Assembly: GCF_003334765.1 (NCBI RefSeq)
Contig: NZ_QOWT01000001.1
Strand: one strand, 5' to 3'
Source: Escherichia coli
Lineage (GTDB): Bacteria; Pseudomonadota; Gammaproteobacteria; Enterobacterales; Enterobacteriaceae
DNA: 64,000 bases
This document shows positions 30,769-45,253 of the stretch, one piece after another. The position numbers were made by a program, and so were the translations under genes. A model generated the notes under the pieces. The model worked only from the letters and a program-made list of their open reading frames with translations. It was not told the origin of the DNA and searched no databases. Within the stretch, counting starts at the first letter, position 1; each line of letters opens with the position of its first letter.

Positions 30769-32070
30769 TCAGGCAGAGGTAAATTGCGGGATGTTATGCC
30801 ATAACGGCCAGCTAAACGAGAAGCGGGCACCACCCAGTTCGCTGGTGTCACAATTAACCGTACCGCCCATTGCCAGTGCTATAGAGTGGACAATTGCCAG
30901 CCCCAGCCCGCAGCCGCCGGTTGAGCGATCCCGGCTGGGATCGAGGCGAACAAAAGGTTCAAAGATATGTTCGCGGTTTTCTGGGGCAATCCCTGGGCCA
31001 TCATCCTCAACAATTAATGTCGCTCTATTCCCCGACAGTAGCAGGCTGGTTTCAACCGTTGAATGGCAGTACCGCAGGGCGTTATTGAGCAAATTATCCA
31101 GCACGCGCTCCATTAAGCGCATATCCAACGCCGCATAATGGCCTTGCACGAGCGTTTTTATCCGTACCGTTTTATCGGGCGTTACTGCCTGAATATCTGC
31201 CAGATGCGTTGACAGCCACAACGGCAGGTCTGGTTCGCTAAGATGAAGCTCGTTTTGTGGGCGATCGAGTCGGGCATAAGTCAGCAGCTCTTCAATTAAA
31301 GCTTCAAGTTGACTGATATCACGATTCAACGCCTGGGATTCGGCGGCGCTCAGGTTATCGCTCATCTCCAGTCGATAACGCAGGCGCACTAACGGTGTTC
31401 GCAGTTCGTGAGCGATACCGTCAATAAGCTGTTTTTTGCTGGCAATTAAGGCGTTGATATTGTCCGCCATCTGGTTAAATGCGACGCCAAGTCGTTCAAA
31501 GCTCGAACCCTCATCAAAGTGGATACGTTCATTGAGATGCCCATCGCCAAATCGTTGCGCCGCTGCTTCCAGTTTTAACATATCCTGCCAGTGCGGACGC
31601 ATCCAGATAAACACCGGAAAGGCGAGGGAAATAGCAATAAAAGCGATCAGGGCGATATCCAGCAATCGCATCTGATGGAGATAATAAAGATAAGGAACAG
31701 GACCAACTGCCAGCACGTAGTGGCTGCGCGGGATACGCTGCAAAAACGTGTACTGATCGTCCAGGGCGACAATTTCGCCGCCACGCAGTCGGTGCATGGA
31801 AATATCATCAAGATGGTATTTACTCAGTGGCTCGACACGCAGATCGAAAGAGAGATTTAAATCCATCTCTTTCAGAGTTTTACCCCAGTCGTGTGGGGGG
31901 ATCTCACGCAATTCGCTGCGCATCAGATACAGCGAACTGTTCATCAAATCATCCAGCGACTGTTTGCCCGCGCGTTCGGCGGTAAATTTGTACACCAGCC
32001 CAACCAGCAGAGACATCACAAGGAAGCAGACAAACAATAACAGGTAAAACTGGATAAACAGTTTTTTCAT
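30769..32070 (-). CDS. rstB: two-component sensor histidine kinase
   Basis: 433-aa ORF with two TM segments, H-box HELRTPL, and G-box motifs. Confidence 0.92.
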   Translation of the reverse strand: MKKLFIQFYLLLFVCFLVMSLLVGLVYKFTAERAGKQSLDDLMNSSLYLMRSELREIPPHDWGKTLKEMDLNLSFDLRVEPLSKYHLDDISMHRLRGGEIVALDDQYTFLQRIPRSHYVLAVGPVPYLYYLHQMRLLDIALIAFIAISLAFPVFIWMRPHWQDMLKLEAAAQRFGDGHLNERIHFDEGSSFERLGVAFNQMADNINALIASKKQLIDGIAHELRTPLVRLRYRLEMSDNLSAAESQALNRDISQLEALIEELLTYARLDRPQNELHLSEPDLPLWLSTHLADIQAVTPDKTVRIKTLVQGHYAALDMRLMERVLDNLLNNALRYCHSTVETSLLLSGNRATLIVEDDGPGIAPENREHIFEPFVRLDPSRDRSTGGCGLGLAIVHSIALAMGGTVNCDTSELGGARFSFSWPLWHNIPQFTSA

Positions 32071-32073
32071 CGC

Positions 32074-32793
32074 TTATTCCCATGCATGAGGCGCAAAAAG
32101 ATAGCCTTTGTTACGCACAGTTTTAATGCGATAAGGTTCTGCGGCGTTATCGAGCAGTTTTTTTCTTAACCGCGAAATAGCCACGTCCACGCTACGATCC
32201 AGTCCGTCATAACTGACGCCGCGTAAATTTTTCAGCAATGCATCGCGGTCCATGATTTGCCCGGCATGGGTAGCTAATTCCCACAATAATTCGAAATCAG
32301 CTGTCGAGAGCGAGATTTCAGTGTTAGCCAGGGTGACTACGCGGTTGATGGGATCGATGGTCAACGTGCCGAAATGCAGGGCTTTGTAGGGAGTCAGAGA
32401 CGTTTCCTGAAGACCTTTGGTCAGTGTGGCTTGCTCATTCTGACGCAAATGCAAACGTAAACGCGCTAGCAAAACAGCAGGGGGCGTCGTTTTGAGAATA
32501 TAGTCGCAGGCACCCATTTCCAGTGCCAGGATGTGGTTCATATCGCTATCGAGAGAGGTTAGAAGAACAATCGGTCCAGACCACTTTGCGCGTAAATCAC
32601 GACAAATGGTCATGCCGTCCTTGCCTGGTAGCATGATGTCGAGTAACACCAAATCCGGATTTTCTCGCAAAATGGTTTCTTCGGCCTGGTCGCCGCGCGG
32701 CTCTACGGTAACCTGCATATCATGTTTTGCCAGGTACGCGGCAATCAGTGAACCGACTTCCGCATCATCTTCCACAAATACGATAGTGTTCAT
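32074..32793 (-). CDS. rstA: OmpR-family response regulator
   Basis: start placed at MNTIVFVEDDAEVGSLIAAYL within the 259-aa ORF, giving 239 aa. Confidence 0.9.
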   Translation of the reverse strand: MNTIVFVEDDAEVGSLIAAYLAKHDMQVTVEPRGDQAEETILRENPDLVLLDIMLPGKDGMTICRDLRAKWSGPIVLLTSLDSDMNHILALEMGACDYILKTTPPAVLLARLRLHLRQNEQATLTKGLQETSLTPYKALHFGTLTIDPINRVVTLANTEISLSTADFELLWELATHAGQIMDRDALLKNLRGVSYDGLDRSVDVAISRLRKKLLDNAAEPYRIKTVRNKGYLFAPHAWE

Positions 32794-41816: not shown

Positions 41817-42132
41817 ATGGGTTCACGCCGCCTGGCTGGCATTGGCAATCGTGCTGGAAATCGTTGCTAACGTCTTTTTGAAATTTTCTGACGGCTTTCG
41901 TCGCAAAATATTTGGCTTGCTCTCCCTGGCGGCGGTGCTGGCTGCCTTTAGTGCGCTTTCTCAAGCCGTTAAAGGGATCGACTTGTCTGTCGCTTATGCA
42001 TTGTGGGGCGGGTTTGGTATTGCCGCCACGTTAGCCGCAGGTTGGATCTTGTTTGGTCAACGGTTAAATCGTAAAGGCTGGATTGGCCTGGTCTTGCTGT
42101 TGGCTGGAATGATCATGGTGAAACTTGCCTGA
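41803..42132 (+). CDS. mdtI: SMR-family spermidine export protein MdtI
   Basis: 109-aa ORF with four TM helices. Confidence 0.9.
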
Positions 42133-42137
42133 TGAAG

Positions 42138-42180
42138 ACGCTGCCCGCGCTGTCGGGCAGCGTTTGAACATTATTTTTGC
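42138..42180 (+). terminator. hairpin plus T-rich tract after mdtI, between convergent mdtI and ydgD
   Basis: acgctgcccg/cgggcagcgt stem followed by ttgaacattattttt. Confidence 0.5.
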
Positions 42181-42992
42181 GACAGTTGATCCAGCTTGTC
42201 GCGAAAACCGGTAACAGAAATGGCCCGGTTATCGGCGCGCCAGCGATCTTTCGCGGCAGGAGCCGAACTTTGCACCCCAATTAATTGCCAGCCGTCATCG
42301 GTATGCAACATCAGAGGCGAACCGCTGTCACCCGGCAAGGTATCGCACTGATGTGACATCACCGACGTTTGCGCCCAGCCAGTCACTTCACAGTTTTGAT
42401 GACTGTACAACGTATCGAGATGATCTTCAGGGTAGCCTGCCTGAGTCACTTTACGACCTGCCGCTTTTAATGCGGCGGTAAGCGCGGCTTTATCTCCCTC
42501 AAATAACGGCAACGGCGTAATGCCAGAAGGGGGATTACGTAGCACAATCAATCCGAAGTCCCACGGCGCGGCTGCGGGAGGTACAATCCAACCATCCCCA
42601 TCTGCTTTTAACCGCTTTCCCAGTGTCGGATCAACGCGGCCTTCTATGTCGTGGATCTCATAGCGCCAAAGACCTTTATTTGACACAAAACGCAGCGCCA
42701 CTGCTTTATCGGCTTTACCCTTTGGAGGTGTCAATAAACAGTGTCCTGCCGTTAATGCCAGATTGGGTGCAATCAGCGTCGCCGTACATAAATTGCCGCT
42801 GGCCGTTTCCAGTTGCCCAACCGCATCCCACGGTGATTGGGTCGTGTCATTCACTGGCACACGATCATCATGACCAAAAAACAGGGTGCTGACCTCATCG
42901 TTTGCCGATCTGGCAACGTCTGGTTTATCTGCAAACACAAAAGCAGACGTCAAACTAATTGCACCCAACACTACAGCAATGGTTGTACGCAT
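42171..42992 (-). CDS. ydgD: trypsin-like serine protease (secreted)
   Basis: 273-aa ORF with signal peptide; TAGHC and GDSGSP catalytic motifs. Confidence 0.9.
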
Positions 42993-43091
42993 ATCACACT
43001 CTGGTGGGTAATTATGATTATTAAAAGCAAACCCTCATAAATACTATAGACGGGACGGGATGAAAGTGGGAGTAAAATCAGATAACTACAA

Positions 43092-43175
43092 TCAGGAAAG
43101 ATAAAAACGGGCGGCAATCAGTGCGCATAAAATAAGGATGATCAGAATGAACTCAAAGCGATAACGGCCCACCAT
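43092..43175 (-). CDS. ydgU: small hydrophobic protein YdgU (27 aa)
   Basis: manual translation of the minus strand gives MVGRYRFEFILIILILCALIAARFYLS then stop; below the ORF-track length cutoff. Confidence 0.6.
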   Translation of the reverse strand: MVGRYRFEFILIILILCALIAARFYLS

Positions 43176-43267
43176 ACTACCCTCCGCTAAAGGCGGTGCT
43201 AAACGTTACCCGCTTAGCACCGTAATTTTCAGGCGCGAGGGGGCGCGCCAGCATTACTGTTGAAAAC

Positions 43268-43576
43268 TTACGCTGCGGGTTGTGCAGCAGGTTTTGCCGG
43301 TTGCTGATGGCTGTGTTTCTTGGCGTGTTTCTTCGCTGCCTGCGCTTTTTGTTCAGGGGCTTTCTGTTCAGCTTTCGTATTTTTATGATGCTTTTTAGCC
43401 GCCTGCGCTTTCTGGGCAGGTGCTGCTTTATGCTGTTTTTTATGATGTGTAGTTTTCGCCGGCGCTGCTTTGGTGGTCGTCGCAGTCGGAGCAGGTGTGG
43501 TCGTAGTCTCTGCAGCAAAGGCGGCAGAAGACAGACCCATAGCAGCGGCAACAACCAGAGCTAATACTTTTTTCAT
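43268..43576 (-). CDS. asr: acid shock protein
   Basis: start placed at [21 protein letters not shown] (signal peptide) giving 102 aa; Lys/Ala/His-rich repeats. Confidence 0.9.
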
Positions 43577-43961
43577 TGTCATACCCTCAATTTGTTTTTT
43601 CATTTAACCCCACTGCGGGGCCGTTGAAATAACTATATCCCTGGGAATGGCAGACTTCCGTGAGTGGTTGGTTTCAGCGTGTAACGATATGTACAAACGC
43701 TGAATAAATTACAGCGTTGATAATAACGTATTGTGACTTAAGGGAAATTTAGCTACCAATAATAGTAGTCTTGATCGGGTTAACTATTTTACTACTTACA
43801 AAGCAGTAGAATAACTGCGCATCAGTAATAAATGACACACAGCAAAATGAATCCGTTTATTTGGGTACTTATAATCCTGATGACGCTAGACGCGCTGCGG
43901 GAATTGGCTGGCGCTTCGTCTATTTTAGGATGGCTATTAACGTTGGTTTGAGCTGGCAATA

Positions 43962-43999
43962 AGTCCGGACGGGTATTTACCGCAGTCCGGACTTATTTT
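43962..43999. terminator. hairpin immediately downstream of ynfM stop, with T-run on the plus strand
   Basis: aagtccggac/gtccggactt stem followed by attttt on the plus strand. Confidence 0.5.
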
Positions 44000-45253
44000 T
44001 CAGGCGTGCAGACGACGATGCAAACGCGTCCCGACCAGCAGAGCAATGACCAGCATCAGAGCAATAAATGCGCCGACGCCGTTCCAGCCATAGTTATGCC
44101 AGAAAACACCACCCAGCGTCCCGGCAATACTCGACCCCAGATAGTAACTGAACAGATACAGCGAGGAGGCCTGGCCTTTAGCGCGTTTTGCGCGGGGGCC
44201 GATCCAGCTGCTGGCTACTGAGTGGGCTGCGAAGAATCCTGCTGAGAAGAGTAACATTCCGGCAAAGATCAGCCACAGCGAGCTGAATAAGGTCATCAGT
44301 AAACCAAACAGCATAACCCCCGTCGAAAACAACATCACTGGACCACGCCCATAGCGGGTGGTCATGGTTCCGGCTTTGGGTGAGCTCCATGTACCGGTCA
44401 AATAAGCCAGCGATAATAAGCCAACCACGGCCTGACTGACATGCCAGGGGGAGAGCATCAACCGATAGCCGATGTAATTAAACAGCGTGACGAACGACCC
44501 CATCAGCAAAAAGCCTTCTGCGAACAATAACGGTAATCCCCGGTCACGCCAGTGCAGACGAAAGTTGATAAACAACGTCTTAGGGCGCAGCGAAGTCGGG
44601 CGAAAATGGCGTGATTCAGGGAGGATTTTCCAGAACATCAACGCCGAGGCCAGCGCGAAACAACCGATTGCCGCCAGAGCAATTCGCCAGTTGAAAAAGT
44701 CCGTGAAGACACCGCTAATTAAGCGTCCGCTCATGCCGCCAATTGAGTTGCCGCTGATATACAACCCCATTGAAAAGGCCACGAAACTGGGATGGATTTC
44801 CTCGCTAAGATAAGTCATGCCAACAGCTGCCACGCCACTTAACGAAAGCCCAATCAAGGCGCGCATAATCAAAATGCCGTGCCAGCTGGTCATCATTGTC
44901 GAAAGTAACGTACAAATGGAGGCCAACAGTAGCGCCGTGACCATCACTGGTTTGCGACCAATGGCATCGGATAGCGGGCCAGTAAACAGCAAACCAATAG
45001 CCAACATCGCCGTGGAAATGGACAGTGAAATACTACTGTTCGCGGGGGTTAAGCCAAACTCCTGCGAAAGCACCGGAAGGATAGGCTGCACACAATAGAG
45101 AAGTGCAAATGTTGCCAGTCCGGCAGAGAACAGCGCCAGGGTGACGCGCATAAATTGCGGCGTACCGCGTTTAATAAATTGATTTGGCTGAGAAATGCTT
45201 TGCTTGTCAGTGTCGCTTGCCGGAGCGCCATCAACAGTTGTAGTACGGCTCAC
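44000..45253 (-). CDS. ynfM: MFS transporter
   Basis: 417-aa ORF, 12-TM MFS topology. Confidence 0.9.
   Translation of the reverse strand: MSRTTTVDGAPASDTDKQSISQPNQFIKRGTPQFMRVTLALFSAGLATFALLYCVQPILPVLSQEFGLTPANSSISLSISTAMLAIGLLFTGPLSDAIGRKPVMVTALLLASICTLLSTMMTSWHGILIMRALIGLSLSGVAAVGMTYLSEEIHPSFVAFSMGLYISGNSIGGMSGRLISGVFTDFFNWRIALAAIGCFALASALMFWKILPESRHFRPTSLRPKTLFINFRLHWRDRGLPLLFAEGFLLMGSFVTLFNYIGYRLMLSPWHVSQAVVGLLSLAYLTGTWSSPKAGTMTTRYGRGPVMLFSTGVMLFGLLMTLFSSLWLIFAGMLLFSAGFFAAHSVASSWIGPRAKRAKGQASSLYLFSYYLGSSIAGTLGGVFWHNYGWNGVGAFIALMLVIALLVGTRLHRRLHA

What the first reader, a model, noticed from the sequence alone, without database searches (positions are those of the whole stretch)
43092..43175. 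27-codon hydrophobic ORF (ydgU-like) between ydgD and asr, missing from the ORF track
Manual translation of the minus strand gives MVGRYRFEFILIILILCALIAARFYLS. It is below the six-frame track cutoff and matches my recollection of the K-12 small protein YdgU. Such genes are routinely missed by automated annotation.
Basis: partly seen in the sequence, partly recalled or inferred. Interest (0 to 1): 0.25.

Follow-up and report, generated by a model that had tools for sequence, protein, structure and literature searches.

The report
Known small membrane gene ydgU (samT)
The 27-codon ORF is real but already known: it is E. coli ydgU, renamed samT in 2026, a tiny inner-membrane peptide made together with the acid-shock protein Asr that dampens the RstB-RstA acid-sensing system which switches it on.

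Summary
It is ydgU (b4601), which is annotated in K-12 with the same spacing to asr and ydgD. It scores above the curated cutoffs of two NCBIfam equivalog models, and the locus is present in 5423 of 5426 complete E. coli genomes. The window allele differs from K-12 at one residue (A21 versus T21).

An ORF of this length is not remarkable by itself (728 ORFs of at least 27 codons in the window). The frame-conservation test is passed clearly. In 80 loci from other species, anchored on ydgD and not on the peptide, 78 keep an intact 25-29 codon ORF. Of these, 77 start with ATG, and a GGAG-type SD precedes nearly all. Codon-position variability runs 3rd > 1st > 2nd, median dN/dS is about 0.22, and no other frame stays open.

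Published work shows translation, membrane localisation, co-transcription from the RstA-dependent asr promoter, and direct binding to RstB with negative feedback at pH 5.

My additions are minor. An exact RstA box lies upstream in 76 of 78 loci, even where asr was lost. An intrinsic terminator sits directly against the ydgU SD in most genera.

Verdict: already known, low interest.

The parts
43092..43175 (-). ydgU / samT coding sequence: 27 codons plus TGA; peptide MVGRYRFEFILIILILCALIAARFYLS
   Evidence: Conserved frame in 78/80 syntenic loci.
43180..43185 (-). Shine-Dalgarno GGAGGG, 4 nt upstream of the ATG
   Evidence: Sequence. A GGAG-type motif sits at the same place in nearly all 78 orthologous loci. 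PMC13425233 notes a canonical SD.
43194..43222 (-). 12-bp hairpin CGGUGCUAAGCG-GGUAA-CGUUUAGCACCG (about -20 kcal/mol) at the position that holds the asr intrinsic terminator in other genera. Here the U-tract is degenerate (CCUUUAGCG).
   Evidence: A terminator-like hairpin plus U-run ends 17-23 nt before the ydgU ATG in 56/75 unique spacers, against 1/71 and 1-3/79 in controls.
43228..43249 (-). GC-rich segment GGCGCGCCCCCUCGCGCCUGAA. In the predicted fold its CGCCCCCUC pairs with the ydgU SD and with the G of the start codon.
   Evidence: MFE -48.7 kcal/mol, z = -3.4. SD pairing probability about 1.0 in Escherichia and one Citrobacter only. This is a prediction, is not conserved elsewhere, and was not tested.
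43268..43576 (-). asr, acid-shock periplasmic protein; first gene of the asr-ydgU operon
   Evidence: NF033636, 102 bits, cutoff 50. An asr-like gene lies upstream of ydgU in 75/78 loci.
43680..43693 (-). RstA box TACATATCGTTACA, 117 nt upstream of the asr ATG and 518 nt upstream of the ydgU ATG
   Evidence: Only exact match to TACA-N4-GTTACA in the 64-kb window. An exact box is present upstream of ydgU in 76/78 loci, with 0 matches in 1.05 Mb of background. The box consensus itself comes from my own knowledge (Ogasawara et al. 2007).
42171..42992 (-). ydgD, trypsin-like serine peptidase; conserved downstream neighbour, 96-122 nt after ydgU in most loci
30769..32793 (-). rstA (32074..32793) and rstB (30769..32070): the two-component system that activates the asr promoter. 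Its kinase RstB is the published target of the peptide.
   Evidence: RstB NF007898, 833 bits, cutoff 478; RstA NF007977, 485 bits, cutoff 330; PMC13425233.

Best explanation
This is the protein-coding gene ydgU (samT). It encodes a 27-residue peptide with a single transmembrane helix in the inner membrane: a short basic N-terminus (R4, R6) predicted and tagged as cytoplasmic, a hydrophobic core from F9 to A22, and 4-5 residues beyond that. It has no promoter of its own. It is transcribed from the RstA-dependent asr promoter by polymerases that pass the hairpin at the end of asr, and it is translated from its own SD. Acid, or low Mg2+ acting through PhoQP on rstAB, induces Asr and the peptide together. 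The peptide then binds the sensor kinase RstB in the membrane and limits phosphotransfer to RstA, closing a negative feedback loop. Shown here: the ORF, its SD, the synteny, purifying selection on the amino-acid sequence, a conserved RstA box, and rstAB in the same window. Shown in the literature for the K-12 allele: translation, membrane localisation, operon structure, complementation in trans, dependence on RstB phosphotransfer, and a two-hybrid interaction. Inferred: that the window's A21 allele behaves the same way, that the contact is helix-to-helix within the membrane, and that terminator read-through sets the peptide:Asr ratio.
For: Identity: (both alleles pass NF052476 and NF011341). 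Population: locus in 5423/5426 complete E. coli genomes. Coding selection: 78/80 ydgD-anchored loci keep a 25-29 codon ORF, 77 with ATG, nearly all with a GGAG-type SD. R4, Y5, F7, L11 and F24 are near-invariant (71-73 of 74 sequences), I15 is conserved (70/74), and E8 and C17 are invariant. Entropy by codon position is 0.85/0.33/1.31 and median dN/dS is 0.22. Only this frame is always open. Hydropathy: GRAVY 1.6, 14-residue uncharged core F9-A22. Regulation: RstA box in the window and in 76/78 loci with zero background matches. In two Franconibacter species that lost asr, the box lies 114-131 nt from the ydgU ATG. Literature: PMC13425233 (asr-samT operon, RstA-dependent northern signal, samT alone complements the negative feedback at pH 5, feedback lost in four rstA/rstB phosphotransfer mutants, strong SamT-RstB two-hybrid signal). 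PMC11429745 (GFP-YdgU at the membrane, PhoQP-dependent, negligible promoter activity directly upstream, no overexpression toxicity). PMC10746267 (Ribo-seq log2FC 9.22 and RNA log2FC 12.39 at pH 4.4).
Against: The functional evidence rests mainly on one 2026 study, and the direct interaction is a two-hybrid result with overproduced fusions that also gave weaker signals with PhoQ and EnvZ. A ydgU deletion had no growth phenotype under Mg2+ stress. The window allele (A21) was not the one tested. The gene has been lost at least twice without loss of ydgD (L010 remnant, L062 deletion), once by IS2 insertion in an E. coli strain, and appears to be decaying in a fourth lineage (L042), so it is dispensable in some lineages. 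Synonymous sites are near saturation across the sampled genera (pooled pS 0.69), so the dN/dS value is approximate.
Confidence: 0.88

Rival explanations
1. It is a chance ORF in the asr 3' UTR / ydgD upstream region, and its conservation reflects RNA or DNA elements (terminator, promoter), not a protein.
For: ORFs of this length are abundant (728 in the window). The region carries a conserved hairpin just upstream and a strongly conserved non-coding block just downstream.
Against: Variation is concentrated at third codon positions, dN/dS is about 0.22, and specific residues are near-invariant. Only this frame is open in all 73 unique sequences. ATG and SD are conserved. It matches curated equivalog models. 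Ribo-seq, GFP-fusion membrane localisation and (as cited there) epitope tagging are published.
Confidence: 0.01
2. It acts mainly in cis as an upstream or leader ORF: the act of translating it, not the peptide, controls expression of the downstream protease gene ydgD.
For: ydgU sits at a nearly fixed 96-122 nt from ydgD in most loci. There is no terminator-like site between them (1/71). ydgD translation efficiency rises at pH 4.4 (log2 2.16).
Against: The amino-acid sequence, not just the frame, is under selection. samT alone, expressed from another chromosomal locus, restores the feedback. Where the adjacency is broken (Mangrovibacter, asr-ydgU-asr'-ydgD), ydgU stays with asr. The spacer holds its own conserved block with a -10-like TATAGT, which suggests a separate ydgD promoter. 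A cis role in addition to the trans role is not excluded.
Confidence: 0.06
3. It is a type I toxin-like hydrophobic peptide that damages the membrane when expressed.
For: It is short and very hydrophobic (GRAVY 1.6), like Ibs, Ldr or DinQ-type peptides.
Against: Overexpression had negligible effect on growth, unlike DinQ in the same study. No Rfam RNA family (including antitoxin sRNAs) matches the region on either strand, even at E up to 1. It is massively induced at pH 4.4 in cells that survive.
Confidence: 0.01

Closest known systems
YdgU / SamT of E. coli K-12 (b4601; NCBIfam NF052476, NF011341)
   Same: Same locus, same length, same neighbours and spacing; 26/27 residues identical; passes both curated models.
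   Different: One substitution, A21 in place of T21. Both residues are common at this column across the family (A 51, T 23 of 74). The A21 allele itself has not been tested experimentally.
MgrB, the 47-aa inner-membrane inhibitor of the PhoQ kinase
   Same: Same logic: a small single-pass membrane peptide whose gene is activated by a two-component system and which binds that system's kinase to give negative feedback (PMC13425233).
   Different: No detectable sequence similarity (BLASTP finds no alignment at E <= 100). MgrB is longer and, after its hydrophobic segment, has a ~25-residue C-terminal tail with two cysteines (sequence; that this tail is periplasmic is from my own knowledge). YdgU has only 4-5 residues beyond its hydrophobic core, so any contact must be within or next to the membrane (inference). 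MgrB has its own promoter; ydgU is the distal gene of an operon.
UgtS-UgtL of Salmonella (operon encoding a small-protein antagonist and an activator of PhoQ)
   Same: One operon, controlled by the two-component system, encodes both a positive and a negative modulator of that system.
   Different: UgtS works by antagonising UgtL, whereas Asr and SamT act independently of each other. No homology was tested here.

Membership tests
YdgU/SamT small membrane protein family | Scores above the curated cutoff of the NCBIfam equivalog models | tested here: met
   NF052476: 70.3 bits (cutoff 24). NF011341: 74.5 bits (cutoff 66). Full-length 1-27/27.
YdgU/SamT small membrane protein family | 25-29 residues with one hydrophobic helix and a basic N-terminus | tested here: met
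   27 aa, uncharged core F9-A22, R4 and R6 at the N-terminus, GRAVY 1.6. Orthologues are 25-29 aa.
YdgU/SamT small membrane protein family | Conserved residues R4, Y5, F7, E8, L11, I15, C17, F24 | tested here: met
   All are present in the window peptide. Each is invariant or near-invariant in 74 unique orthologues.
YdgU/SamT small membrane protein family | Genomic position: directly downstream of asr, same strand, under an RstA-box promoter | tested here: met
   92 nt after asr. RstA box at 43680..43693. asr upstream in 75/78 loci and the box in 76/78.
YdgU/SamT small membrane protein family | The peptide is made and sits in the inner membrane | not testable with these tools
   Literature only, K-12 allele: Ribo-seq; GFP-YdgU at the cell periphery.
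YdgU/SamT small membrane protein family | Binds RstB and lowers RstA-dependent transcription at acid pH | not testable with these tools
   Literature only. The window does encode RstB and RstA.
MgrB family (PhoQ inhibitor) | Sequence homology to MgrB | tested here: not met
   BLASTP of the peptide against K-12 MgrB: no alignment at E <= 100.
MgrB family (PhoQ inhibitor) | C-terminal tail beyond the membrane helix carrying conserved cysteines | tested here: not met
   Only R23-S27 follow the hydrophobic core. The single Cys (C17) lies inside the core.
Type I toxin peptides | Toxic on overexpression and paired with an antisense or antitoxin RNA | tested here: not met
   No Rfam family in 42000..44200 at E <= 1. 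Negligible growth effect on overexpression according to PMC11429745.

The most novel reading that the evidence does not exclude
The intrinsic terminator that sits directly against the ydgU ribosome-binding site in most genera acts as a fixed valve. [quoted passage not shown] In Escherichia the U-tract has decayed, and a fold that pairs the SD and start codon with an upstream CCCCCUC may have taken over as a translational valve. Because no terminator follows ydgU, the same read-through would reach ydgD. That would make the trypsin-like periplasmic peptidase a third member of the RstA acid module, and a candidate for the protease that processes the lysine-rich Asr.
Probability: 0.3. Interest if true: 0.3.

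Novelty: already known. Interest (0 to 1): 0.1.

Why it matters
For the scan, this is a correct call of a real gene that falls below a length cutoff, so it is a useful positive control for spotting small proteins by eye. It is not a discovery. The gene has been in the K-12 annotation for years (b4601; the NAR paper credits Hemm et al. 2008), and its function was published in 2026. The biology matters in its own right, because small membrane peptides that tune sensor kinases are an emerging regulatory class. The comparative data here (RstA box retained in 76/78 species, and the asr promoter fused directly to ydgU where asr was lost) support the published suggestion that the RstA -> SamT -| RstB loop is conserved well beyond E. 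coli.

Tried and rejected
- Rfam scan of 42000..44200 at E <= 1: no RNA family, so no known sRNA, riboswitch or antitoxin RNA explains the region.
- Sigma-70 promoter scan of 42900..43900: 0 sites, so no sign of an own promoter for ydgU. This agrees with the reporter data in PMC11429745.
- The generic terminator scan flagged only a weak hairpin at the asr stop codon (43271..43289) and missed the 12-bp hairpin at 43194..43222, because the U-tract there is degenerate.
- My first terminator count (27/75) was too low, because A/U runs flanking the stems were absorbed into the hairpin. I recounted with trimmed stems and controls and got 56/75.
- SD sequestration as a conserved feature was rejected. 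The pairing probability is about 1.0 only in Escherichia and one Citrobacter, and it varies elsewhere.
- PDB sequence search: no hit.
- MgrB homology: none.
- Hemm et al. 2008 (PMC2614699) is not held, and no supplement of the NAR paper is held. The original identification and the transcript sizes could therefore not be read directly.
- I did not run the large protein-database searches, because taxonomic breadth would not change the verdict.

Full report
**Observation.** The minus strand of window 43092..43175 translates to MVGRYRFEFILIILILCALIAARFYLS followed by TGA. The ORF has an ATG start and appears in the ORF list once the cutoff is lowered to 20 aa, so it was missing from the first-stage track only because of the length cutoff. 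A GGAGGG Shine-Dalgarno lies 4 nt upstream of the ATG. The ORF sits 92 nt after the stop of asr (43268..43576, -) and 99 nt before the start of ydgD (42171..42992, -). mdtI/mdtJ lie on one side of this cluster and ynfM on the other. As a bare ORF it is unremarkable: the window contains 728 ORFs of at least 27 codons, and 20 of them have an ATG plus an SD-like motif.

**Identity.**
- The K-12 reference annotates ydgU (b4601, 84 nt) at the homologous place with identical spacing.
- The peptide scores 70.3 bits against NCBIfam NF052476 'small membrane protein YdgU' (cutoff 24) and 74.5 bits against NF011341 (cutoff 66), matching full length in both.
- The K-12 peptide differs at one residue, T21 against A21 in the window. 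The window allele also occurs in other E. coli, for example O103 RM8385, and both alleles pass the models.
- The locus is present in 5423 of 5426 complete E. coli genomes. In the sampled rows RefSeq places a CDS under it, named YdgU, 'hypothetical protein' or 'stationary phase-induced protein'.
- The one sampled exception is strain ESBL_DR28, where an IS2 element has inserted into the gene.

To avoid circularity I anchored on the neighbouring gene ydgD, not on the peptide. I fetched 80 loci from one-genome-per-species contigs covering Escherichia, Citrobacter, Kosakonia, Kluyvera, Buttiauxella, Cedecea, Franconibacter, Siccibacter, Erwinia, Pantoea, Mixta and others.
- 78 of the 80 loci encode a YdgU-like peptide on the same strand, in most cases 96-122 nt upstream of ydgD.
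- All 78 ORFs are intact and 25-29 codons long. 77 start with ATG, and nearly all are preceded by a GGAG-type SD.
- Across 74 unique coding sequences, mean column entropy is 0.85, 0.33 and 1.31 for codon positions 1, 2 and 3. Pooled pN/pS is 0.34 and median pairwise dN/dS is 0.22.
- E8 and C17 are invariant. R4, Y5, F7, L11 and F24 are near-invariant (71-73 of 74), and I15 is conserved in 70 of 74.
- Only the YdgU frame is free of stops in all 73 unique sequences. The other five frames are open in 0 to 36 of them.
- Caveats: synonymous sites are close to saturation (pS 0.69), and a transmembrane segment constrains composition, so the dN/dS value is approximate. The qualitative pattern is unambiguous.

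**Losses.**
- Intestinirhabdus (L010) keeps asr and the SD, but the ATG is gone and the frame is broken.
- Tenebrionibacter (L062) has lost asr and ydgU together.
- Buttiauxella warmboldiae (L042) lacks asr and the RstA box, and its ydgU has lost the ATG, so it is probably decaying.

**Context and regulation.**
- An asr-like gene lies directly upstream of ydgU in 75 of the 78 loci.
- The only exact match in the 64-kb window to the RstA box core TACA-N4-GTTACA (consensus from my own knowledge of Ogasawara et al. 2007) is TACATATCGTTACA at 43680..43693 (-), 117 nt upstream of the asr ATG.
- The same exact motif occurs once, on the same strand, within 1 kb upstream of ydgU in 76 of 78 loci. It has no match at all in 1.05 Mb of the remaining sequence of those loci. 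One of the two misses is a truncated flank.
- In two Franconibacter species the asr coding sequence is absent, and the box lies 131 and 114 nt from the ydgU ATG. That is about the distance it normally keeps from the asr ATG, so the asr promoter drives ydgU directly there.
- In Mangrovibacter asr is duplicated (asr-ydgU-asr'-ydgD), and ydgU stays behind the first copy.
- The window also encodes RstB (30769..32070) and RstA (32074..32793), about 10 kb away.

**What the literature shows.**
- PMC13425233 (NAR 2026) credits Hemm et al. 2008 with identifying the ORF.
- PMC10746267 lists ydgU among 'previously known sORFs'. It reports the strongest sORF induction at pH 4.4, with Ribo-seq log2FC 9.22 and RNA log2FC 12.39.
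- PMC11429745 shows GFP-YdgU at the cell periphery and PhoQP-dependent induction from the region upstream of asr. Promoter activity immediately upstream of ydgU was negligible, and neither deletion nor overexpression affected growth.
- PMC13425233 renames the gene samT. asr and samT are both RstA-dependent at pH 5. samT alone, expressed from another locus, restores negative feedback on the asr promoter, whereas asr alone does not.
- In the same paper the feedback disappears in four mutants that abolish RstB-RstA phosphotransfer. T18-SamT gives a strong two-hybrid signal with T25-RstB, comparable to MgrB-PhoQ, and weaker signals with PhoQ and EnvZ.

**Mechanism.** The best-supported account is this. 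Acid, or low Mg2+ acting through PhoQP on rstAB, activates RstA. RstA activates the asr promoter. Polymerases that continue past the end of asr transcribe ydgU. The peptide inserts in the inner membrane with its basic N-terminus inside, and it binds RstB and limits phosphotransfer, so the system is damped.
- Shown here: gene structure, selection on the peptide, and the conserved promoter wiring.
- Shown in the literature: translation, localisation, trans action and the RstB interaction, all for the K-12 allele.
- Inferred: equivalence of the A21 allele, and a contact within the membrane. The peptide has only 4-5 residues beyond its hydrophobic core, unlike MgrB with its longer C-terminal tail.

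**Comparison with known systems.** It is a member of the YdgU/SamT family on every feature I could test. It works like MgrB but is not a homologue: BLASTP finds no alignment, and it lacks the C-terminal tail beyond the membrane helix. No solved structure matches, and no Rfam family covers the region.

**Extra observations, not in the main text of the 2026 paper.** Its text contains no discussion of a terminator or of ydgD.
- In most genera a canonical intrinsic terminator ends 17-23 nt before the ydgU ATG, so its U-tract runs into the SD. A typical example is CACCCGG-loop-CCGGGUG followed by UUUCUUU.
- A strict perfect-stem test finds this in 56 of 75 unique spacers, against 1 of 71 in the ydgU-ydgD spacer and 1-3 of 79 in controls inside ydgD. 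Several of the misses have bulged stems followed by U-runs (listing).
- The stem sequences differ between clades while the position is kept. ydgU expression must therefore depend on read-through.
- In Escherichia the hairpin is retained (43194..43222, about -20 kcal/mol) but the U-tract is degenerate.
- The Escherichia spacer folds well beyond shuffled controls (-48.7 kcal/mol, z = -3.4). The predicted structure pairs the SD and the G of the start codon with CGCCCCCUC at 43237..43245.
- That SD pairing is confined to Escherichia and one Citrobacter and has no covariation support, so it remains a hypothesis.
- The ydgU-ydgD spacer contains a block conserved at 80-99% out to the Erwiniaceae, including a -10-like TATAGT at 43043..43048. 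ydgD translation efficiency rises at pH 4.4.

**Verdict.** The feature is already known and now functionally characterised, so interest is low. It is a good example of a correct by-eye call of a small gene.

Noticed in passing
window 43194..43222 (-); orthologous spacers in L007-L081: A canonical intrinsic terminator (GC hairpin plus U-run) ends 17-23 nt before the ydgU ATG in 56/75 unique spacers, so its U-tract runs into the SD. Controls give 1/71 and 1-3/79. In Escherichia the hairpin is kept but the U-tract is degenerate. This implies ydgU is expressed by read-through. It is not discussed in the main text of the 2026 paper.
   Followed up: partly
window 43170..43249 (-): The predicted fold of the asr-ydgU spacer (-48.7 kcal/mol, z = -3.4) pairs the ydgU SD and the G of the start codon with CGCCCCCUC at 43237..43245. 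The pairing probability is about 1.0, but only in Escherichia and one Citrobacter. It may be a lineage-specific translational control.
   Followed up: partly
window 43040..43088 (-): A block in the ydgU-ydgD spacer (CTGATTTTACTCCC ... CCGTCTATAGTA, with a -10-like TATAGT at 43043..43048) is 80-99% conserved across 77 unique sequences out to Erwinia and Pantoea, more than the flanking coding DNA. It is probably ydgD's own promoter or operator. No sigma-70 -35 element is at the right spacing, and no regulator was identified.
   Followed up: partly
window 42171..42992 (-), ydgD: The trypsin-like peptidase gene ydgD is almost always directly downstream of asr-ydgU, with no terminator between ydgU and ydgD. 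Its translation efficiency rises at pH 4.4 (log2 2.16, PMC10746267 Table S4), and a 2026 study lists it as contributing to acid resistance. Asr is lysine-rich and, from memory, is processed by an unidentified periplasmic protease, so YdgD is an untested candidate.
   Followed up: partly
window 43832..43951 (+): A second small hydrophobic ORF (39 aa, MTHSKMNPFIWVLIILMTLDALRELAGASSILGWLLTLV) lies between ynfM and asr. It matches NCBIfam NF033695 'KPN_01571 family protein' (63.3 bits, cutoff 35). It is annotated in some RefSeq E. coli genomes but not in the K-12 reference record.
   Followed up: partly
L021 3700..3900 and L022 (Franconibacter pulveris, F. helveticus): The asr coding sequence is absent, but the RstA box and promoter region remain 131 and 114 nt upstream of ydgU. 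This is a natural asr deletion that keeps ydgU under the RstA-dependent promoter.
   Followed up: yes
L066 2700..3980 and L069 (Mangrovibacter): asr is tandemly duplicated with ydgU between the copies (asr-ydgU-asr'-ydgD).
   Followed up: partly
L083 2576..3900 (E. coli ESBL_DR28, NZ_CP067250.1): An IS2 element is inserted inside ydgU, a natural knockout. It was the only genome in the sampled rows where the locus is split.
   Followed up: partly
window 30769..32793 (-): rstB and rstA, which encode the published target of the peptide and the activator of its promoter, lie in the same window about 10 kb from ydgU.
   Followed up: yes
ydgU residues 21-23 and 27 in Escherichia loci L003, L005, L006, L047 and K-12 (L001): Within Escherichia the otherwise conserved peptide varies at its C-terminal membrane edge: AAR (window), TAR (K-12), ATH, ATC, ATR, and S27F. 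Outside the Escherichia-Citrobacter-Kosakonia group, position 23 is mostly Ser and not Arg.
   Followed up: no
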